From the NCBI GenBank assembly GCA_050948665.1, contig JBMNEH010000001.1:1891079-1955078 (forward strand): a DNA stretch of 64,000 nucleotides, written 5' to 3'. This document shows, one piece after another, positions 41,600 to 53,243 of this stretch. The DNA is from Christensenellales bacterium. GTDB lineage: Bacteria; Bacillota; Clostridia; Christensenellales; UMGS416. The position numbers were made by a program, and so were the translations under genes. The first letter of the stretch is position 1. Each line of letters begins with the position of its first letter. The notes under the pieces are model-generated. The model had not been told where the DNA came from. It searched no databases and saw nothing but the letters and a program-made list of their open reading frames with translations.

Positions 41600-43045
41600 T
41601 TAATAGGCTCTGGCCCAGTAGACCAGGTTTTTCGCTTTGCCGCCACAGCAGACGCAGGTATCGCCTATGCTTTCATCGGAAAAAGGTATGTTCCGGGCGG
41701 TGGCGGAGAACTTGTCTTTGATGGCATCCTCACAGGCCCGGTCACCGCACCACATGGCGCGGACATAGCCTTTGCCGTTGTCCAGCCGTTCCTCCATCTC
41801 CTCCAGGGTATGGACGTCATAGGTGTGGGCAGCAAGATAGTCCTCAGCCTTGCGGAGCATTCCCATATGTATATCATCCAACAGGGCGGGAATGCTCTCC
41901 GCCAGCCTCTCCAAGGGGAGGGTTGTCTTCTCTAGAGTATCCCGGCGCATGATGGTAGTTACGCCGTTTTCCAGGTCCCGGGGACCGATCTCCAGCCGCA
42001 GCGGAACGCCCTTGAGCTCCCACTCATTGAACTTATAACCGGGAGAAACCGTATCCCGGTCATCCAGGTGGATGCGGACACCGGCGGTCTTCAGCGTATC
42101 GGCAACATCCCGGCAGGCTTCCGTCACTCCTCCCTTGTGGGCGGCAATGGGGAGGATGACCGCCTGTATCGGTGCGATACGGGGAGGCACCACAAGGCCG
42201 CGGCCGTCTCCGTGTACCATGACCACAGCACCGATCAGCCTGGTGGTAACTCCCCAACTGGTCTGGTAGCCATACTCCAGCTTACCCTCTTTGGTCTGGA
42301 ACTGGATATTGAACACCCGGGAAAAATGCTGCCCCAGGTTGTGAGAGGTGCCGGCCTGCAACGCCTTTCCGTCCTGCATCAGCGCTTCGATGGAGTAGGT
42401 CGCGGCAGCGCCGGCAAACTTCTCTTTTTCGGTCTTCTGACCGGTAACCATAGGAATCGCCAGCACGTTCTCGGAGAACTCCCTGTAGACCTCCAGCATA
42501 CGGAGAGTCTCTTCCTGCGCTTCCTCTGCGGTGGCATGCACGGTGTGCCCCTCCTGCCACAGGAACTCGCTTGTGCGGAGAAAGGGGCGGGTCGTTTTCT
42601 CCCAACGAACCACATTCGCCCATTGATTAATCAGCACCGGTAGATCCCGGTAGGATTGTATCCATTTCTGGTACATTGAACATATGATGGTTTCACTGGT
42701 GGGACGGATAGCGATCCGTTCGGTCAATTGCTCATTCCCGCCCATGGTGACCCAGGCCGCCTCTGGCGCAAAGCCCTCAACGTGTTCAGCCTCCTTCATC
42801 AGAAAGCTCTCAGGAATGAACAGCGGAAAATAGGCGTTCTGGTGGCCGGTGGCCTTGATCCGATCGTCCAATTGACGCTGGAGATTTTCCCACATGCCGA
42901 AGCCGTAGGGACGGATGACCATCGTACCCTTCACGGGACCGTAGTCCACAATTTGTGACTGAAGGATCACATCCGTATACCACTGAGGAAAGTCCACCTC
43001 GGGATTTGTCAATACAGTGACAAACTGTTCATTTCTTTTTGCCAT
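41600..43045 (-). CDS. proS: Prolyl-tRNA synthetase (archaeal/eukaryote-like ProRS type common in Clostridia)
   Basis: FPQWYTDVI, GHQNAYFPLFIP, HVEGFAPE, RPTSET, FLRTSEFLWQEGH, QAGTSHNLGQ, C-terminal Zn CGD..C/CVCC, WARAY end. Confidence 0.97.
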   Translation of the reverse strand: MAKRNEQFVTVLTNPEVDFPQWYTDVILQSQIVDYGPVKGTMVIRPYGFGMWENLQRQLDDRIKATGHQNAYFPLFIPESFLMKEAEHVEGFAPEAAWVTMGGNEQLTERIAIRPTSETIICSMYQKWIQSYRDLPVLINQWANVVRWEKTTRPFLRTSEFLWQEGHTVHATAEEAQEETLRMLEVYREFSENVLAIPMVTGQKTEKEKFAGAAATYSIEALMQDGKALQAGTSHNLGQHFSRVFNIQFQTKEGKLEYGYQTSWGVTTRLIGAVVMVHGDGRGLVVPPRIAPIQAVILPIAAHKGGVTEACRDVADTLKTAGVRIHLDDRDTVSPGYKFNEWELKGVPLRLEIGPRDLENGVTTIMRRDTLEKTTLPLERLAESIPALLDDIHMGMLRKAEDYLAAHTYDVHTLEEMEERLDNGKGYVRAMWCGDRACEDAIKDKFSATARNIPFSDESIGDTCVCCGGKAKNLVYWARAY

Positions 43046-43057
43046 TTCTGCCTCCTG

Positions 43058-43270
43058 AAAAATAAAACCGCCCCGTAAAAGGGACGATTCTCATCGCGGT
43101 ACCACCCAATTTGGCATTGCTGCCCACTCGGGATCCGTAACATGGATCACACGCCGCCGTTGCTACCCGGCGGGGCTGGGATAGGTGGGATGAAGCGGCT
43201 CCGGAAGCGCTTTCACCTTCCGCGCCCTCTCTCCGCCGGAGATCCGCCGCAGTTTCCTTCCTGCGCCGAT
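43058..43270 (-). promoter_or_regulatory. T-box riboswitch (probable Pro specifier CCC) with terminator
   Basis: AATTGGGTGGTACCGCG (43095-43111), AGAGAG and GGTGAAAG stem-I motifs, terminator aatcgtccc/ggggcggtt + U-tract. Confidence 0.88.
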
Positions 43271-43275
43271 AACGT

Positions 43276-43304
43276 ATCCTACCACAGATAAGATCAAAAC
43301 GCAA
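43276..43304 (-). promoter_or_regulatory. Promoter of T-box/proS
   Basis: TTGCGT-17nt-TAGGAT on minus strand. Confidence 0.55.
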
Positions 43305-43684
43305 GTGCCTGAATCTGCCGGCAGACAATATCAAAACATCCATGATCCGCGCTCCGGCTGAACAGAGAAAAATGCCGAGTGAGAATTGTCCATCATCTCA
43401 TACACGAAATCGCCGGAAATGATATTCCCAATTTTTAAAAATGCCTCCCTGCTCTGCCGGCAGATCAATCCCAATGGTTGAGGCACGGGTTCAGCGCATT
43501 GCTTCCGGCTTTCCATACCCCGCACGGGAAAGTGCCGTTCGCGTTTTCCGACTTTTAGCGAGTTCTCCCCTGCTGTTTACGGCTTTCTCGGGCATCAGTT
43601 CTATCAGACCGTCACCCCGATCCCGCGCTTTACTTTATGCGACGGGGAGTATATGCTAAAGAGGAAAGGAGGAAAGGAGCCGCA

Positions 43685-44269
43685 ATGTCGGGTACAGATA
43701 AGAAAAACAAGGGCATCGTTCTGTGGAAACTCTTTATCAGCACATTGTATATCAGCGCCTTTACCTTCGGCGGAGGCTTTGTGATCGTTACCTTTATGCA
43801 GCGAAAATTCGTTGATGACCTGCATTGGCTGGAGAAGGACGAGATGCTTGATCTTGTCGCGCTGGCCCAATCCAGTCCTGGTGCCATTGCCGTAAACGCC
43901 GCAATCCTGGTAGGCTGGCGGATGGCCGGCTTTGCCGGAATGTTAGCGGCGGTCTTTGGTACCATACTGCCCCCGATGCTGATTCTTACCGTGATTTCCT
44001 TTTTCTATGAGGCTTTTGCCGAAAACCGGTATGTGGCTCTGGTACTCAAAGGAATGCAGGCCGGTGTGGCGGCTGTCATACTGGATGTGGTATGCCGTCT
44101 CGGCTGGGATGTGCTCAAAATGAAAAAGATCCTGCCGATCGTGTTGATGCTGGCTGCCTTTGTAGCCACCTTCGTGTTTCGTATTAATGTCATATACATC
44201 ATATTGGCTGCGATAGCAGTGGGCATCCTGCTGGAAATATGGAAGCGGCGAAAGGAGAAACTGGTATGA
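43685..44269 (+). CDS. chrA: Chromate transporter (short-chain CHR, subunit 1)
   Basis: FTFGGGFVI, AQSSPGAIAVN; start ATG 43685. Confidence 0.92.
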   Translation: MSGTDKKNKGIVLWKLFISTLYISAFTFGGGFVIVTFMQRKFVDDLHWLEKDEMLDLVALAQSSPGAIAVNAAILVGWRMAGFAGMLAAVFGTILPPMLILTVISFFYEAFAENRYVALVLKGMQAGVAAVILDVVCRLGWDVLKMKKILPIVLMLAAFVATFVFRINVIYIILAAIAVGILLEIWKRRKEKLV

Positions 44270-44832
44270 ACTACATTCAGCTGCTGTGGAGTTTTCTCCA
44301 AATCGGTCTGTTCAGTGTCGGCGGCGGATACGCCGCCATGCCCCTTATCCAAAGTCAGGTCGTTGATAAGTATCATTGGCTCACAATGAGTGAATTCACC
44401 GATCTTATCACCATCGCGGAGATGACGCCGGGGCCGATTGCGATCAATTCCGCCACCTTTGTAGGGCTGCGTATCGGCGGCATATTGGGCGCTGTGATCG
44501 CCACTCTCGGCTGTATCCTTCCCTCCTGCGTCCTGGTTTCCCTGATGGCCCGGGTCTACTTTCGTTACAAAAATGTCTCGGCGATGCAAAATGTGCTGGG
44601 CAGCCTCCGTCCGGTCGTGGTAGCGCTGATTGCCGGTGCCGGTCTCTCCATATTTGTACTGGTAGCTTTCGGCGGCGCGCCGGTTAGCTGGCAAAGCCTT
44701 CGTTGGGAGGGGCTGATGCTGTTCGCCTGCGCCTTCGCCGTATTGCGGGCGTTCAAATGGAATCCCATTCTGACTATGGCGCTTTGCGGCGCCGCCTCTC
44801 TGTGTTTCGGACTGCTTTCCGGAGCTGTTTAG
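44266..44832 (+). CDS. chrA: Chromate transporter (short-chain CHR, subunit 2)
   Basis: FSVGGGYAAMP, AEMTPGPIAINSATF; ATGA overlap with subunit 1. Confidence 0.92.
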   Translation: MNYIQLLWSFLQIGLFSVGGGYAAMPLIQSQVVDKYHWLTMSEFTDLITIAEMTPGPIAINSATFVGLRIGGILGAVIATLGCILPSCVLVSLMARVYFRYKNVSAMQNVLGSLRPVVVALIAGAGLSIFVLVAFGGAPVSWQSLRWEGLMLFACAFAVLRAFKWNPILTMALCGAASLCFGLLSGAV

Positions 44833-44845
44833 AAGCAAAAAACAC

Positions 44846-44880
44846 GCCCTTTTGACGAGAATTCAAAAGGGCTCTCTTTT
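44846..44880 (+). terminator. Intrinsic terminator after chr pair
   Basis: gcccttttga-cgagaat-tcaaaagggc followed by tctctttt. Confidence 0.6.
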
Positions 44881-44882
44881 GC

Positions 44883-44911
44883 TTGACAGAGCTTGACACA
44901 TACGTTATAAT
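44883..44911 (+). promoter_or_regulatory. Consensus sigmaA promoter of rpoB
   Basis: TTGACA-17nt-TATAAT, with a second TTGACA inside the spacer. Confidence 0.85.
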
Positions 44912-45073
44912 TGATTGCTGACTTACACTGGGTCAGTATGCAGTTGATTACTTTCCCTTCGCATAAACGCTTGCGAAAAGATGTGTCACCCGGCCGCTGC
45001 GGAGGATGATTTCTAAGTTCTCCGGGAAATGTGAAAATCCTGCTCACCAATAAAGAAAGGGTGTAAAACAGGA

Positions 45074-48000
45074 ATGCAAAGTACCATTCATCCGGTCACC
45101 TATGGAAAACGCACACGCATGAGCTTTTCCAAGGTGAAAGAGATCCTGGATATTCCGGATCTAATCGAGGTGCAGAAGAAGTCGTATCAGCATTTTTTGG
45201 ATGTGGGGCTGCGCGAAGCGTTCAATGACATCTCCCCCATTCAGGATTACATAGGCGCCCTAAGCCTGGAGCTGGTTGACTACCATCTGGACAAGGAACC
45301 GAAGTACTCCGTAGAGGAGTGCAAGATTCGCGATGCAACCTGGTCCGCTCCGATGAAAGTCAGAGTGCGGCTGAAGAACAACCTGACCGGGGAAATAAAA
45401 GAGGCTGAGGTCTTCATGGGGGAGTTCCCTTTGATGACTGATCAGGGCACCTTTATCATCAACGGCGCAGAGCGCGTCATCGTTTCCCAACTGGTTCGCT
45501 CTCCCGGTGTGATTTTCGGGACTAGTGTGGATAAGAACGGCAAACTGCTGGCGAATACTACTGTGATCCCCAACCGCGGTGCCTGGCTTGAGTACGAGTC
45601 CGACAGCAATTCCGTACTTTGGACTCGTGTTGACCGTACTCGAAAACAGCCGGCGACTGTGCTGCTCCGCGCCCTGGGCTACGGCACCGACCAGGAGATC
45701 ATCGAACTGTTGGGCGAGGAGGAACATCTTCTGGCTACCTTGGAGCGCGACACCGCGAAGACCAAGAGGGACGGTCTTCTGGAGATTTACCGCAGGCTGC
45801 GTCCCGGCGAGCCTCCCACGGTGGAATCGGCAGAGGCGTTGCTGACCTCACTATTCTTTGACACCCGCCGGTACGATCTGGCGGCCGTAGGCCGGTATAA
45901 AATCAATAAGAAACTGTCGCTAGCAACCCGTATCACCGGACAGACCCTCGCAGAGGATGTGATCAGTCCTTACACGGGCGAAATTGTCGCTGAGGCCGGT
46001 ATCTATGTGGACGAGCAGCTAGCGGCTAGCATACAGCAGTCCGGTGTCCGATCGGTGGATATTGCGCTGGACAATCATGTACTCAGAGTGGTGGGCAACC
46101 AATTCGTAGATGCGCAGCCCTACCTCCCCGAGGGTGTAACCGAAGAAGAGTTGGGCATCACCGAAAAGGTGCATTTCCCCACGCTCATGAGTATATTTGC
46201 CCGGTACAGCGATCCCGCCGAGCTGAAAGAAGCGCTCCGTCTGAACGTGGACGCTCTGGTTCCCAAATATATCTATCGTGATGATATCGTTGCAGCTTTG
46301 AGCTACCAGTTGGGTCTGTACTACGGCATCGGTCGCCGGGATGATATCGACCATCTCGGAAACCGCCGCCTTCGCAGCGTCGGTGAATTGCTGCAGAACC
46401 AGATTCGCATCGGTCTTTCCAGGCTGGAGCGTGTTGTGAAGGAGCGTATGGCCATTCAGGATCTGGATAATCTGACTCCCCAGGCACTGATCAACATCCG
46501 CCCGGTTACCGCGGCGATCAAGGAATTCTTTGGCTCTTCACAGCTGAGCCATTTCATGGATCAGACCAATCCTCTGGCAGAATTGACAAATAAGCGCCGT
46601 CTGTCAGCTTTGGGTCCCGGCGGACTGAACCGTGACAGGGCTACCTTTGATGTCCGGGACGTGCACGCCTCCCATTACGGCCGTATCTGCCCCATCGAAA
46701 CACCTGAAGGCCCTAACATCGGCCTTATCGGCTCCCTCTCCATCTACGCCCGTATTAATAAATACGGCTTTATCGAATCTCCTTACCGGCGTATCGACCC
46801 GGTCACCCATTGTGTGACAAATGAGGTCCGCTATATGTCCGCCGATGAAGAGGATCAATATATTATCGCGCAGGCGAACGAGCCTTTGGACGAGCATGGC
46901 CGCCTGCTCAACGACATGGTCACCGTGCGTGCCCGCGGCGAGATCGTTGAGGTAAACCGTGACCGGGTCGAGTGGATGGACGTGTCACCCCGGCAACTGG
47001 TTTCTGTTGCCACCGCAATGATTCCTTTCCTGGAGAATGACGCTGCCAACCGTGCCCTGATGGGATCCAACATGCAGCGCCAGGCAGTACCCCTCCTTAT
47101 GCCCGAAGCTCCGCTGGTCGGTACCGGCATGGAGTATAAGGCCGCTCTGGATTCCGGCGCTTTGATCATCGCAAGAGAAAATGGCGTCGTAGAAAAGGTG
47201 GATGCTACCTGTATCCAGGTTCGCGAGGAAAGCGGTGAATTATATAAGTATAACCTGTCAAAGTTCGTCCGGTCCAACCAAGGTACCTGCATCAACCACC
47301 ATCCCATTGTTGTGTCGGGAGATAAGGTCACCAAGGGTGATGTGATCGCCGACGGACCTTCCACCGATATGGGCGAGATTTCTCTGGGTCGGAACATATT
47401 GATGGCGTTCATGCCCTGGGAGGGCTACAACTACGAGGATGCCGTGCTGATCAGCGAAAAGCTGGTGAAGGAAGATATCCTTACTTCCATCCACATTGAA
47501 GAATACGAGTGCGAATCCCGGGATACCAAACTGGGACCGGAAGAGATTACCCGGGAAGTACCCAATGTGGGCGAAGACTCCCTGAAGGATTTGAATGAGC
47601 GGGGTATTGTCCGCATTGGCGCCGAAGTCACCGCGGGAGATATTCTGGTAGGCAAGGTCACACCCAAGGGTGAGACCGAACTGAACGCCGAGGAGCGCCT
47701 GCTTCGGGCGATCTTCGGTGAAAAGGTGCGGGAGGTGCGGGATACCTCTCTCCGTGTTCCTCATGGTGAAAGCGGCATCGTTGTGGATGTCAAGGTTTTT
47801 AACCGTGAGAATCACGATGATTTGTCCCCCGGTGTAAACGAGACTGTCCGGGTCTATGTTGCCCAACGGAGGAAAATAAGCGTCGGCGATAAGATGTCCG
47901 GTCGTCACGGCAACAAGGGTGTTATCTCCCGGATACTTCCCGAGCAGGATATGCCTTTCCTTCCGGACGGCACACCCCTTGAAATCGTGCTGAATCCTCT

Positions 48001-48841
48001 GGGCGTACCCAGTCGGTTGAACATCGGCCAGGTGCTGGAGGTGCATTTGGGCATGGTGGCCAAACTGAAGGGCTGGCATGTTTCTTCTCCCGTATTCGAC
48101 GGCGCTTCCGAAGATGAAGTACTAAACCTGTTAAAAGAACAGTCTTGGGGCGAAGACGGAAAGGTGTGGCTCCGGGACGGACGCAGCGGCGAATACTTTG
48201 AGAATCCCGTTACCGTGGGTTACATGTATATGCTGAAGCTCCACCATCTGGTGGACGATAAGATCCACGCCCGTTCCATCGGTCCCTATTCTCTGGTGAC
48301 CCAGCAGCCTTTAGGCGGCAAAGCCCAGTTCGGCGGCCAACGGTTCGGCGAGATGGAGGTTTGGGCTTTGGAGGCCTACGGCGCCGCCCATACGCTCCAG
48401 GAAATTCTCACCGTCAAGTCCGATGACGTGGTGGGCCGCGTAAAGACCTATGAAGCCATCGTCAAGGGCGAAAATGTTCCAGAGCCCGGGGTACCCGAGT
48501 CTTTCAAGGTGCTGATCAAGGAACTGCAGTCCCTGGCGTTGAACGTAAAAGTTCTCAACGACGAGGAAAAGGAAATTACTATACCGGACTCCTCTATCGA
48601 GGATGAGGTGGGTGATTTGAGCATTACGCTGGAGGGAGATCTGGATTTGAGTGACGTTTTCGGTACGGATACCTCGGATGAGGATTCCGAGCTGGACGAC
48701 GATTTAAGTTTGGATATAGACTTGGAACTGGATGGTCTTGCCGATCTTCCCGGTCTGAGCGAGTTAGGCAGCGATTTGCCCGACTTTATAAGCACCTCTG
48801 ATGACAACAGCGAGGATCCCGATGATCCCGACGATCTGTAA
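45074..48841 (+). CDS. rpoB: RNA polymerase beta subunit
   Basis: [55 protein letters not shown]. Confidence 0.99.
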
Positions 48842-48878: not shown

Positions 48879-51800
48879 TTGTTCGAGCTTAATAATTTCG
48901 ATGCGATTCAAATCGGTTTGGCTTCCCCTGAAAAAATTCTGGAATGGTCCTATGGCGAGGTACTCAAGCCTGAGACCATTAACTACCGTACACTCAAACC
49001 CGAGAAGGACGGTTTGTTCTGTGAGAAGATTTTCGGACCCAGCAAGGACTGGGAGTGCCACTGCGGGAAATATAAACGTATCCGCCATAAGGGCATCATC
49101 TGCGATAAGTGCGGCGTAGAGGTGACCCGATCGAAAGTGCGCCGAGAACGCATGGCGCATATTCAACTTGCCGCTCCCGTATCCCACATATGGTACTTTA
49201 AAGGCGTACCCAGCCGTATGGGTCTGCTATTGGACATGAGTCTGAAGCTCTTGGATCGGGTGCTGTATTTCACTGCGTATGTGGTGACTGACCCCGGAGA
49301 TACACCCCTGACGCACAAGCAGGTGCTGACCGATGCTGAATACCGGGAGGCCGTCGACCGGTACGGCGACAGATTCAAAGCCGGAATGGGCGCCGAAGCC
49401 GTAAAAGATTTGCTGATGCAAGTAGATCTGGAAGCCGTGTCCGAAGAGCTTCGGGAGATATTGGAAAACGCCACCGGCCAAAAGCGGGCGAAAGCCATTA
49501 AGCGGCTGGAAATCATAGAAGCCTTCCGGAAATCCGGTAATAAGCCTGAGTGGATGATACTGGACGTGGTTCCCGTTATTCCTCCGGAATTGCGGCCTAT
49601 GGTACAGTTGGACGGTGGCCGTTTCGCCACCAGCGACCTTAACGACCTGTATCGCCGTGTCATTAACCGGAATAACCGACTGAAGCGCCTGCTGGAGTTG
49701 GGTGCACCGGAAATCATCATCCGAAACGAGAAACGCATGCTGCAGGAATCGGTGGACGCGCTGATCGATAACGGCCGCCGTGGTCGCCCTGTTACCGGTC
49801 CCGGAAACCGCGCTCTGAAATCCCTTTCGGATATGCTGCGGGGTAAACAGGGACGTTTCCGTCAGAACCTTTTGGGCAAGCGGGTCGACTACTCCGGCCG
49901 TTCCGTAATCGTCGTCGGCCCCGAGCTAAAGCTCTTCCAGTGCGGTCTTCCCAAGGAAATGGCGCTGGAGATGTTCAAGCCCTTTGTCATGAAAAAATTG
50001 GTGCAGGACGGCATGGCTCACAATATCAAATCCGCGAAACGCATGGTAGAACGGATAAAGCCCGAGGTATGGGATATCCTGGAAGAAGTGATAAAAGAAC
50101 ACCCCGTGCTGCTGAACCGCGCCCCGACTCTGCATCGTTTGGGTATACAGGCCTTCGAACCCATCATGGTGGAAGGCCGCGCCATTAAGGTACACCCCTT
50201 GATATGTACCGCCTTTAATGCGGACTTTGACGGTGACCAGATGGCCGTACACCTCCCCTTGTCTGTGGAAGCGCAGGCAGAAGCCAGATTCCTGATGCTG
50301 GCCACCAACAATATCCTCAAGCCCCAGGATGGCAAGCCTGTTGCCTCTCCCACCCAGGACATGGTCATGGGATGCTACTACCTGACGCTTGAGATCCCCG
50401 GCGCCAAGGGCGAAGGCCGCTGGTTCTCCGATATGGACGAGGCTGTCATGGCGTATGAGGCCGGCCAGATCACTCTGCATTCCAAGATCCATGTACGGAT
50501 ATTCCGGACAATCGGCGGGCAGGTGAAGGGCCAGGTCATCGAGACCACCGTAGGCAAGCTGATCTTCAATTCCGTCATTCCGCAGGATTTGGGGTTTGTA
50601 GACCGTTCCAATCCGGAAGATGCCTTCCGGCTGGAGGTGGATACCCTCGTCAAGCGCGGAACCCTCGCGCAGATTGTGGACCGTACCTACCGTGTTTATG
50701 GCAATATCCGCACTTCTGAGGTGCTGGATGCCATAAAGGCACTGGGTTTCAAGTACTCTACAAAGGGCGCTGTCAGTGTCGCGGTATCCGACATGGTCAT
50801 CCCCACGGAGAAGAAGGAGTACCTTTCCAGCGCCAACGACCGTATCAGGATGGTAGAGTCCAGCTATCGTGACGGCTTGATATCCGATGACGAGCGTTAC
50901 CGCGCCGTGGTGGAAACTTGGCAGAACACCACAAACAAGGTCACCAAAGCTCTGGAAAACGCATTGGATGTCCTGAACCCCATCTATATGATGAGTAATT
51001 CCGGTGCCCGGGGCAACATGAACCAGGTGCGTCAGTTGGGCGGTATGTGCGGATTGATCGCAGATCCCTCCGGCCGGATCATCGAGGTGCCTGTTCGTTC
51101 CAACCTGCGGGAGGGCATGTCCGTACTTGAATACTTCATCTCTTCCCACGGTTCCAGAAAAGGATTGGCCGATACCGCTCTGCGCACCGCAGACTCAGGT
51201 TATCTGACGCGCCGTCTGGTAGATGTTTCTCACGATATGATCGTCCGTGAGTCTGACTGCTTCGCAGCACGGGGCGAGCCCCCCAGAGGTATGACCGTAG
51301 CCGCCATCTATGACGAGTCCCGGGAGATCGAGAGCCTCAGTTCCCGTATTTGGGGGCGAACGATTATCGGCGATGTCATCCATCCCGCGACCGGTGAGAT
51401 ACTGGCCAAAGACAATACGATACTTACCGTTGATCAGGCCGATGCCATTGAAAAGGCCGGAATAAAGGAAGTCACCATCCGTACCGTTCTTACCTGTCGG
51501 AACGAAACCGGCGTCTGCGCAAAGTGCTACGGCATCAACCTGGCCACCGGACGGCCCGTTCACATCGGCGAGACCGTGGGCATCATCGCTGCCCAAGCCA
51601 TCGGCGAGCCCGGCACCCAGCTGACAATGCGTACCTTCCATACCGGTGGCGTCGCTATGTCAGAGGATATTACCCAGGGTCTTCCCCGTGTCGAGGAGAT
51701 CTTTGAGGCCCGCAAGCCCAAAGGACAGGCCGTTATTACGGAAATTGCCGGTAAAGTCTCCATGACAGAGGCTAAAAAGAAGCGCGAAATCACTGTCACC

Positions 51801-52451
51801 GGTGATGACGGTGAATCAAAGGTCTATTCCATCCCCTTCGGTTACCGCACAAAGGTATCCGACGGCGATGTGATCGAGGCGGGCGACAGCCTGACCGAAG
51901 GCCCCGTAAACCCCCATGACATTCTGAAAATAAAGGGGATCCGGGGTGTACAATCCTACATGCTCCGGGAGGTATTGACAACCTACCAGTCCCAGGGCGT
52001 CAACATTGCTGACAAACACCTGGAGGTTGTGATCCGGCAAATGCTTCGCAAGGTCCGTATTGAGGATTCCGGTGATACCGATATGCTGCCCGGCGAGTTG
52101 GTGGACATCTTTGACTTCGAGAAGAAGAACGAAGCCGTACTGCAGAACGACGGCCAGCCGGCCATCGCAAAGCGCGTGCTTTTAGGCATCACAAAGGCTA
52201 CTCTGGCTATCAACTCCTTCCTCGCCGCCGCTTCCTTCCAGGAAACTACCCGCGTACTCACTGAAGCTGCCATCAAAGGGAAGATCGACCCTCTTCTCGG
52301 TTGCAAGGAGAACATTATACTCGGCAAGCTGATTCCCGCCGGAACAGGCATGAAATGCTATAAATCCCTGAGGATCAATACCGAGAGTGAGGATGCTCCC
52401 ACGACGGTGGCCATTCCCATGACATTGGAAGATGTCGCTATGGACACCTGA
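48879..52451 (+). CDS. rpoC: RNA polymerase beta' subunit
   Basis: [14 protein letters not shown]...[32 protein letters not shown] start. Confidence 0.99.
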
Positions 52452-52696: not shown

Positions 52697-52862
52697 AATT
52701 GGCGTGTGTTCCGACGAGGACGCAGACCATCCCGCATTTCGGTTGCTCGGAATCGGGAGGAGCAGCCCATGCTCATGGTCGGTCATCTGTCGGAGCTCCA
52801 TTTGTCTGCCGGCCCCCGGGGTTGCGGAGGCGGCCGACGCAAGAGAAAGGAGGTGCAGCGAA

Positions 52863-53243
52863 ATGCCTACCATTAACCAGATCGTGCGTATGGGCAGGGA
52901 GCGGAAGACCTATAAATCCAAGTCCCCTATCCTGAAGTCCAATCCTCAGAAGCGCGGCGTTTGCTTGGTCGTGCGTACTTTGACTCCCAAAAAGCCGAAT
53001 TCCGCACTCCGTAAAATCGCCCGCGTCCGCCTGACAGACGGCTCCGAGGGTACCTGCTATATTCCCGGTATCGGTCATAATTTGCAGGAACACTCTGTCG
53101 TTTTGATTCGCGGCGGTAAAGTGCGCGACCTGCCGGGTGTACGTTACCACATCATCCGCGGTACTTTGGACGCCTCTGGTGTTGCCAACCGTAAGCAGGG
53201 TCGTTCCCGTTACGGCACCAAGCGTGCCAGGAGCACTCGCTAA
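52863..53243 (+). CDS. rpsL: 30S ribosomal protein S12 (divergent)
   Basis: [39 protein letters not shown]; start ATG 52863 behind AAAGGAGG. Confidence 0.98.

What the first reader, a model, noticed from the sequence alone, without database searches (positions are those of the whole stretch)
46550..46591. RpoB rifampicin pocket carries both Q513H and H526N
Seen: FFGSSQLS-H(CAT 46550)[13 protein letters not shown](AAT 46589)[11 protein letters not shown], 13 codons apart as expected for E. coli positions 513 and 526. Known: Q513 and H526 contact rifamycins. Substitutions at either give resistance, and N526 is the natural state in intrinsically resistant Mollicutes and some Firmicutes. I do not recall natural H513. 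Inference: strong intrinsic rifamycin/rifaximin resistance, with His apparently relocated from 526 to 513.
Basis: partly seen in the sequence, partly recalled or inferred. Interest (0 to 1): 0.63.

Follow-up and report, generated by a model that had tools for sequence, protein, structure and literature searches.

The report
Clade-fixed RpoB His513/Asn526 pocket variant
The only RNA polymerase beta subunit of this gut Clostridia bacterium has two changes in its rifampicin-binding pocket that are fixed across its whole family and arose together in at least six other lineages, which predicts reduced rifamycin sensitivity but is a twist on a known kind of natural variation.

Summary
rpoB (45074-48841, +) reads [33 protein letters not shown], with CAT at 46550 and AAT at 46589. 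These are E. coli positions 513 and 526.

- It is the only rpoB in a 2.38 Mb single-contig genome.
- It is not an error or a strain mutation. All 20 scorable genomes of the same family in Christensenellales carry H513+N526, with synonymous codon variation.
- None of the other 41 families sampled in the order carries the pair. Six scattered genomes there have Q513+N526, and none has H513 with H/D/Y526.
- Over the whole protein only 7 columns separate the family from 10 sister families: 513, 526, the neighbouring 577, and four others.
- The same pair occurs in at least six other lineages: Brevinematia, two Patescibacteria groups, UBA660-like Bacilli, a Chloroflexota MAG and a Zixibacteria MAG.
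- Natural H513 also occurs with the canonical H526 in Candidatus Hydrogenedentota. The "relocated His" is therefore a recurrent tendency, not a rule.

Natural N526 is already documented in about 3% of species. H526N alone gives only low-level resistance in M. tuberculosis. "Strong" resistance is therefore unproven.

Verdict: a real, lineage-fixed target-site variant that probably lowers rifamycin binding. It is a new variant of a known kind, of moderate interest.

The parts
45074..48841 (+). rpoB, the sole RNA polymerase beta subunit gene of the genome (1255 aa)
   Evidence: Translation. NCBIfam TIGR02013 and NF001616 equivalogs well above cut-off. Only one full-length match in the 2.38 Mb genome.
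46526..46624 (+). Rifampicin-resistance cluster I (E. coli 505-537): [33 protein letters not shown]
   Evidence: Alignment to E. coli K-12 RpoB.
46550..46552 (+). Codon CAT = His at E. coli position 513 (canonical Gln)
   Evidence: His in 18/18 family sequences against Gln in 10/10 sister families. CAY in 20/20 family genomes.
46589..46591 (+). Codon AAT = Asn at E. coli position 526 (canonical His)
   Evidence: Asn in 18/18 family sequences against His in 10/10 sister families. AAY in 20/20 family genomes.
46742..46744 (+). Codon ATC = Ile at E. coli position 577, three residues past Rif cluster II. This is a third family-diagnostic change (sister families have Thr).
   Evidence: one of only 7 fixed differences over the whole protein; the change is specific to this family and is not shared by the other H513/N526 lineages.
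48879..52451 (+). rpoC (beta' subunit), immediately downstream in the same operon
   Evidence: Translation. TIGR02386, 1799 bits.

Best explanation
This is a lineage-fixed target-site variant of the single housekeeping RNA polymerase beta subunit.

**Origin.** On the stem of one family of Christensenellales, two single-nucleotide transversions changed two rifamycin-contacting residues. The family consists mostly of uncultured gut, rumen and digester bacteria that NCBI labels Christensenellaceae, Christensenellales or Eubacteriales, and it includes Ca. Parachristensenella avicola. The changes were CAR to CAY (Gln513 to His) and CAY to AAY (His526 to Asn). Both states have since been kept by purifying selection.

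**Likely mechanism (inferred).**
- Asn526 removes the imidazole that hydrogen-bonds the ansa hydroxyls of rifamycins. It is the main cause of lowered drug affinity.
- His513 replaces the Gln that hydrogen-bonds the naphthol end. It is a coupled second change that either adds to the loss of affinity or compensates for the functional cost of losing His526. The pocket also lines the path of the 5' end of the nascent RNA.
- The expected result is intrinsic reduction of rifampicin/rifaximin sensitivity, of unknown magnitude, in the whole family.

**Shown here:** the residues, single copy, clade fixation, recurrence of the pair, and N-first order in one lineage.

**Inferred:** reduced binding, the resistance level and the epistasis.
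For: - **Identity and copy number.** A bona fide rpoB and the only copy.
- **Fixation in the family.** 18/18 family sequences from 9 genera are H/N, while 10/10 sister families are Q/H. In an order-wide sample of 401 genomes (42 families, 173 genera), H513+N526 is in 20/20 scorable family genomes and nowhere else. H513 with H/D/Y526 is in 0/401.
- **Monophyly.** The family is monophyletic with 100% local support, with Q/H sisters.
- **Age.** Synonymous codon variation at both sites shows the states are old and under purifying selection.
- **Concentration in the pocket.** Only 7 fixed differences separate the family from sister families over about 1250 columns. They include 513, 526 and 577.
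- **Recurrence.** 37 GTDB species carry the pair, in at least 7 unrelated lineages.
- **Relatives of the other lineages.** Brevinematia: 8 H/N against 33 Q/H. Patescibacteria: 4 H/N against 21 Q/H. Neither has intermediates near the H/N clade. The UBA660-like Bacilli H/N genomes sit among 16 Q/N relatives, so N came first there.
- **Parallel change.** Across the four lineages, only 513 and 526 change in parallel within E. coli residues 361-680.
- **Background frequency.** N526 is in only about 3% of genomes (13/401 in this phylum; 546/18,127 species in PMC12337354).
- **Literature.** Q513 and H526 contact rifamycins (PMC13404664, PMC12844990). 526N is on the curated panel of resistance substitutions and marks intrinsically resistant clades (PMC12337354). 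Compensation within the pocket is documented, for example T563P rescued by D516N (PMC9177976).
Against: - No phenotype is available for any member of the family.
- H526N alone is a low-level, "disputed" mutation in M. tuberculosis (PMC12844990).
- Natural N526 does not make Bifidobacterium bloom under rifampicin (PMC12337354).
- Q513H is not an established resistance substitution. The one occurrence I read was combined with a deletion.
- H513 coexists with H526 throughout Candidatus Hydrogenedentota, and Q513+N526 is common. Neither residue therefore strictly needs the other.
- 16S-level "Christensenellaceae" and the R-7 group decrease under rifaximin in two human studies (PMC8326398, PMC8339250). 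Those labels mostly cover the Q/H families of the order and do not resolve this family.
- The counts of H/N and H/H lineages come from different collections, so the enrichment of H513 on N526 backgrounds is only semi-quantitative.
Confidence: 0.6

Rival explanations
1. Phenotypically silent for antibiotics. Under this reading the pair is neutral or was selected for a transcription property, and the bacteria remain essentially rifamycin-sensitive. Candidate properties are contacts with the 5' end of nascent RNA, promoter escape, pausing, or NAD+/cofactor capping.
For: - Natural N526 in Bifidobacterium and 518D in Francisella do not give the predicted phenotype (PMC12337354).
- H445N is low-level or disputed in Mtb (PMC12844990).
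- Every Rif-pocket substitution tested altered NAD+ capping in vitro, and Q513/T563 mutants alter promoter clearance (PMC5737558, PMC9177976).
- These anaerobic gut and rumen lineages have no obvious exposure to actinomycete rifamycins (inference).
- 16S "Christensenellaceae" fall under rifaximin (PMC8326398, PMC8339250).
Against: - 526N was recovered as a resistance mutation in several species and marks clades with experimentally known intrinsic resistance, such as Mollicutes (PMC12337354).
- Two of the few direct drug-contact residues are changed at once.
- Three of the 7 family-diagnostic positions of a 1255-aa protein lie in or next to the pocket.
- The 16S data do not resolve this family from the Q/H majority of the order.
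Confidence: 0.3
2. The pair is an adaptive response to natural inhibitors that bind the Rif pocket (rifamycin- or sorangicin-like compounds) in the habitat. It was selected repeatedly as a low-cost, high-level resistance solution.
For: - The same pair arose independently at least 7 times.
- The family also carries the classical streptomycin-type uS12 K88R.
- The survey authors propose ancestral exposure for resistant clades (PMC12337354).
Against: - No producer or compound is known in these habitats.
- No resistance level has been measured.
- uS12 K88R also occurs in three sister families that have canonical RpoB, so the two traits are not tightly linked.
- I did not look for rifamycin-modifying enzymes.
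Confidence: 0.2
3. Artefact or special copy. Under this reading the finding is a sequencing or assembly error, a recent laboratory or clinical resistance mutation in one strain, or a second drug-resistant rpoB paralogue of the kind found in Nocardia.
For: None found.
Against: - There is a single rpoB in the genome.
- The same residues occur in 20 family genomes with synonymous codon differences, in 22 GTDB species of the family and in about 27 metagenomic 90% clusters.
Confidence: 0.01

Closest known systems
Natural RpoB Asn526 of Mollicutes, Erysipelotrichales and Bifidobacteriales (survey: PMC12337354, PNAS 2025)
   Same: Clade-fixed Asn at the His526 position of the only housekeeping RpoB. 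Predicted, and for Mollicutes established, intrinsic rifampicin insensitivity.
   Different: Those clades keep Gln513. The UBA660-like Bacilli relatives checked here are mostly Q/N. This family adds His513 and Ile577, and lies in Clostridia (Christensenellales). The survey's main text does not mention 513H.
Acquired H526N (M. tuberculosis H445N and its equivalents)
   Same: The same substitution at the same drug-contact histidine.
   Different: Acquired H526N is a recent, strain-level mutation with low-level, "disputed" resistance (PMC12844990) that usually needs a partner mutation for a high MIC. Here it is an ancient, fixed state paired with Q513H.
Natural Asn531 of Spirochaetia and many Actinomycetes (PMC12337354)
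   Same: A lineage-wide natural substitution of a rifamycin hydrogen-bonding residue in cluster I.
   Different: A different residue is involved. This family keeps Ser531. The Brevinematia that share the H513/N526 pair also keep Ser531.
His513 with canonical His526 in Candidatus Hydrogenedentota
   Same: Natural, clade-wide His at position 513.
   Different: His526 is retained and residue 508 is Arg: [13 protein letters not shown](I/T)NPLAELT-H-KRR in 120/120 best clusters. This shows H513 does not require N526.
Duplicated rifamycin-resistant rpoB paralogues (Nocardia rpoB2, Actinomadura/Nonomuraea rpoB(R); from established knowledge and PMC12337354)
   Same: Several RRDR substitutions, including position 526.
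   Different: Those are second copies beside a sensitive housekeeping gene. Here there is one copy only.

Membership tests
Natural (intrinsic) target-site variants of housekeeping RpoB in the rifampicin pocket | The gene is the orthologous bacterial rpoB | tested here: met
   TIGR02013 scores 1720.8 bits (cut-off 801) and NF001616 scores 1699 bits (cut-off 896). The gene lies in an rpoB-rpoC-rpsL-rpsG-fusA-tuf context.
Natural (intrinsic) target-site variants of housekeeping RpoB in the rifampicin pocket | It is the only rpoB copy, so the variant enzyme does all transcription | tested here: met
   One full-length match in the 2.38 Mb single-contig genome, which is 94.8% complete.
Natural (intrinsic) target-site variants of housekeeping RpoB in the rifampicin pocket | A residue that contacts rifamycins carries a substitution documented to confer resistance | tested here: met
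   N at E. coli 526. 526N is on the curated 57-mutation panel and is natural in 546 species (PMC12337354). H at 513 is at a contact residue (PMC13404664), but I did not find it documented as a resistance substitution on its own.
Natural (intrinsic) target-site variants of housekeeping RpoB in the rifampicin pocket | The state is inherited and clade-wide, not a strain-level mutation | tested here: met
   20/20 scorable family genomes and 0 of about 380 genomes from 41 other families of the order. Monophyletic clade. Synonymous variation at both codons.
Natural (intrinsic) target-site variants of housekeeping RpoB in the rifampicin pocket | The organism or its RNAP is phenotypically rifamycin-insensitive | not testable with these tools
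   No MIC or enzyme data exist for any family member. The 16S-level rifaximin studies do not resolve the family.
Resistant rpoB paralogue systems (rpoB2 / rpoB(R)) | A second, divergent rpoB copy beside a canonical one | tested here: not met
   Single copy.
Epistatically coupled (compensatory) residue pair | The two changes co-occur more often than expected and arise repeatedly together | tested here: inconclusive
   The pair occurs in at least 7 lineages. There are no intermediates in 3 of the 4 lineages examined. Only these two columns change in parallel. However, H513+H526 and Q513+N526 both exist, and no single collection gave the full 2x2 table.

The most novel reading that the evidence does not exclude
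Q513H + H526N would be a recurrent, epistatically coupled "amide-imidazole swap": (Gln, His) becomes (His, Asn). It would evolve as a unit in the rifamycin pocket of RNA polymerase. By keeping one imidazole and one carboxamide lining the nascent-RNA path while destroying the drug's hydrogen-bond geometry, it would give substantial rifamycin resistance at little or no cost to transcription. That would explain why at least seven unrelated lineages reached exactly this pair, and why whole families keep it.
Probability: 0.25. Interest if true: 0.6.

Novelty: new variant of a known kind. Interest (0 to 1): 0.38.

Why it matters
- **Gut ecology.** If the prediction holds, a whole family of gut and rumen Christensenellales would be naturally less sensitive to rifaximin and rifampicin. 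The same would apply to several uncultured lineages in Brevinematia, Patescibacteria and Mollicutes-like Bacilli. Their sister families would remain sensitive. This bears on how microbiome shifts under rifaximin are read.
- **Isolation.** These mostly uncultured bacteria might be isolated on rifamycin-containing media.
- **Limits of prediction.** Genotype-based resistance prediction has known failures: N526 alone is an unreliable predictor.
- **Epistasis.** The repeated co-occurrence of the two substitutions is a natural experiment on epistasis inside one of the best-studied drug pockets. It can be tested directly with an isogenic allele series in laboratory strains.

Tried and rejected
1. **Sequencing error or strain mutation.** Rejected by the family-wide survey.
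2. **Second resistant paralogue.** Rejected, because there is one copy.
3. **Strict coupling ("H513 only with N526").** Rejected. A metagenome scan found 82 contigs with H513+H526, mostly Candidatus Hydrogenedentota.
4. **Intermediates on the family's stem.** None found. The Q513+N526 proteins among close hits (P0032, P0044-46, P0059) branch in other families. H513+H526 is absent from 401 genomes of the order.
5. **Further convergent positions.** None beyond 513 and 526 in four H/N lineages. Position 577 is specific to this family.
6. **Representative-library search with the 66-aa RRDR piece.** The best 150 representatives hold no H513 at all: 136 Q/H, 9 Q/N, 2 Q/S and 3 unscored. This shows rarity but gave no new lineages.
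7. **General 513 x 526 table for the phylum.** The tool lists only the first ~150 matches, so the table stayed incomplete.
9. **Supplementary tables of the PNAS survey.** Not held, so I could not check whether 513H is on its panel.
10. **Rifaximin trial literature.** It reports only 16S "Christensenellaceae", which is not specific to this family.
11. **3D distance between residues 513 and 526.** Not computed, because no coordinates are accessible.

Full report
**1. The observation**

The ORF at 45074-48841 (+) encodes a 1255-aa protein. It scores far above the curated cut-offs of the rpoB equivalogs: TIGR02013 at 1720.8 bits and NF001616 at 1699 bits.

Residues 485-517 read [33 protein letters not shown]. 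His493 is CAT at 46550-46552 and Asn506 is AAT at 46589-46591.

Aligned to E. coli K-12 RpoB ([33 protein letters not shown]), these are positions 513 and 526.

All other classical pocket residues are canonical: R143, V146, Q510, L511, F514, D516, R529, S531, L533, P564, I572 and R687.

The genome is one contig of 2.38 Mb and holds a single rpoB. The variant enzyme therefore does all transcription.

**2. A family trait, not a mutation**

Among 30 relatives, all 18 genomes of the same family (9 genera, RpoB 70-80% identical) have H513+N526. All 10 readable genomes from other families of the order have Q513+H526.

I then sampled the order evenly: 401 genomes, 42 families, 173 genera.
- Asn526 occurs in 26 genomes.
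- Twenty of these are family members, which is every member whose rpoB was assembled. All twenty have CAY (His) at 513.
- Six are scattered genomes of four other families, and these have CAR (Gln) at 513.
- H513 with H, D or Y at 526 occurs in 0 of 401.

Within the family both synonymous codons are used at each site (CAC 13 / CAT 7; AAC 15 / AAT 5). The states are therefore old and maintained at the amino-acid level.

A FastTree of 89 RpoB sequences gives the family as one clade of 53 rows with 100% local support. Its sister families are Q/H. The Q513+N526 proteins found among the closest database hits branch in other families.

Record titles of the matching GTDB genomes identify the group as Christensenellales. 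The labels include "Christensenellaceae bacterium", "Christensenellales bacterium", "Candidatus Parachristensenella avicola" and "Eubacteriales bacterium", and nearly all are MAGs.

**3. How focused the change is**

Over the whole protein only seven alignment columns separate the 18 family sequences from all 10 sister families. They are E. coli positions 70, 188, 513, 526, 577, 896 and 1039.

Two of these are drug-contact residues. Position 577 (Thr to Ile, window 46742-46744) lies three residues past Rif cluster II.

**4. Distribution beyond the order**

A codon-pattern scan of one genome per GTDB species found the H513+N526 pair in 37 species. The window's own record and near relatives are withheld from this scan.

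About 22 of the 37 belong to this family. The rest fall in unrelated lineages:
- Brevinematia (Spirochaetota)
- a Patescibacteria group
- Dojkabacteria
- UBA660/UBA1423-like Bacilli
- one Chloroflexota MAG
- one Zixibacteria MAG

I examined the relatives of three of these lineages.

| Lineage | H/N | Q/H | Q/N |
|---|---|---|---|
| Brevinematia | 8 | 33 | 0 |
| Patescibacteria | 4 | 21 | 1 (a different RRDR context) |
| UBA660-like Bacilli | 3 | 7 | 16 |

In the Bacilli lineage the H/N genomes sit among Q/N relatives, so Asn526 came first there.

I compared H/N genomes with their nearest non-H/N relatives over E. coli residues 361-680 in four lineages. Only 513 (4 of 4 lineages) and 526 (3 of 4; already Asn in the Bacilli) change in parallel.

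The background frequency of Asn526 is about 3%. It is 13 of 401 genomes in this phylum, of which only the window's genome has H513, and 546 of 18,127 species in PMC12337354.

His513 is rare in general. None of the best 150 representatives of a 1.8-billion-protein library has it.

**5. The coupling is not absolute**

A metagenome scan for H513 with H/D/Y526 returned 82 contigs. Most share the sequence [13 protein letters not shown](I/T)NPLAELT-H-KRR.

A homology search from one of these contigs gave 120 of 120 best clusters with H513+H526. Those that carry an organism label are nearly all Candidatus Hydrogenedentes/Hydrogenedentota.

Natural His513 therefore exists as a clade-wide state with canonical His526, and Q513+N526 is common. 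About 5 RRDR types carry H/H and at least 7 lineages carry H/N, against a 3% background of N526. This suggests that His513 arises preferentially on, or together with, Asn526. The two counts come from different collections, so I treat this as suggestive only.

**6. Mechanism**

- Q513 side-chain contacts with a bound rifamycin are seen crystallographically (PMC13404664).
- His526 (Mtb H445) hydrogen-bonds rifampicin, and its substitutions reduce binding (PMC12844990).
- 526N is a curated resistance substitution and the natural state of Mollicutes, Erysipelotrichales and Bifidobacteriales (PMC12337354).

The most likely effect is therefore lowered rifamycin affinity.

The magnitude is open:
- H445N is low-level or "disputed" in M. 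tuberculosis, and high MICs came with partner mutations (PMC12844990).
- Bifidobacteria with N526 do not rise under rifampicin (PMC12337354).
- Q513H was found only in clinical M. tuberculosis reports. In the one I read it was combined with a deletion.
- From memory, and not verified here, Q513H is absent from the saturating E. coli rpoB mutation sets. That would fit a modifier rather than a resistance mutation.

The pocket also guides the 5' end of the nascent RNA. All tested pocket substitutions change NAD+ capping (PMC5737558). Q513P impairs promoter clearance, and pocket mutations can be compensated by other changes in RNAP, some of them within the pocket (T563P by D516N; PMC9177976).

The pair changes (Gln, His) to (His, Asn), keeping one imidazole and one carboxamide. 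A compensatory role for His513 is therefore plausible but untested. I could not compute the distance between the two side chains.

**7. Comparison with what is known**

Natural RRDR variants occur in about 8% of species and are well described (PMC12337354). This case belongs to that kind.

It differs in three ways:
- it is in Christensenellales;
- Asn526 is combined with His513 and Ile577;
- exactly this pair recurs across phyla.

I found no mention of natural 513H in the survey's main text. Its supplements were not available.

Human rifaximin studies report that 16S "Christensenellaceae" and the R-7 group decrease. This fits the Q/H majority of the order and says nothing specific about this family.

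Other notes report Q513T+H526N and Q513K+H526D in other genomes. These hint at a broader 513-526 coupling, which I did not test.

**8. Verdict**

- The feature is a real, ancient, family-fixed target-site variant of the sole RpoB.
- It probably reduces rifamycin sensitivity, with about 0.6 confidence in the overall explanation.
- The "relocated histidine" is a recurrent evolutionary tendency, not a rule.
- It is a new variant of a known kind, of moderate interest.

Noticed in passing
window 52860-53243 (rpsL); codons at about 53049-53126: uS12 reads [10 protein letters not shown], which is R86K plus the classical streptomycin-type K88R. Arg at position 88 is present in all 15 other family genomes that matched. 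It is also present in three sister families (f2, f9, f11) that have canonical RpoB, so it is not tied to the RpoB pair.
   Followed up: partly
window about 48557-48838 (RpoB residues about 1162-1255): RpoB carries a C-terminal tail of about 94 aa that is very acidic (D/E/S/L-rich), beyond the end of the NF001616 model, which matches residues 14-1161. Relatives have similar total lengths (1237-1303 aa).
   Followed up: no
window 41600-45073: rpoB is not preceded by rplKAJL. Upstream lie two adjacent ChrA-like half-transporter genes (43637-44269 and 44239-44832, +) and proS on the minus strand (41600-43045). Downstream the order is canonical: rpoC-rpsL-rpsG-fusA-tuf.
   Followed up: partly
G274, G166 (f9 g103), G241 (f9 g134), G172 (f22), G037 (f20), G192 (f25); loci L150-L155: Six Christensenellales genomes outside the family carry Q513+N526. 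Asn526 has therefore arisen several more times within this one order, each time at about genus level.
   Followed up: partly
L068-L147 (metagenome contigs); P0274-P0393: Candidatus Hydrogenedentota RpoB carries His513 with canonical His526 and Arg508 ([25 protein letters not shown]) in all 120 best clusters. This is a clade-wide natural H513 that I did not see described.
   Followed up: partly
L041 (JAEZKH010000311.1): A MAG labelled "Actinomycetes bacterium" has an RpoB that nests inside the Christensenellales family (70% identical to the window's RpoB, H/N state). The label is probably wrong, or the bin is contaminated.
   Followed up: no
G810:C8:457657-457709 and 461535-461587; G911 (same genus g389); G687: Three genomes of the phylum sample show two RRDR matches each. 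In G810 the two are only 3.9 kb apart on one contig, both Q/H. This may be an rpoB duplication in that genus.
   Followed up: no
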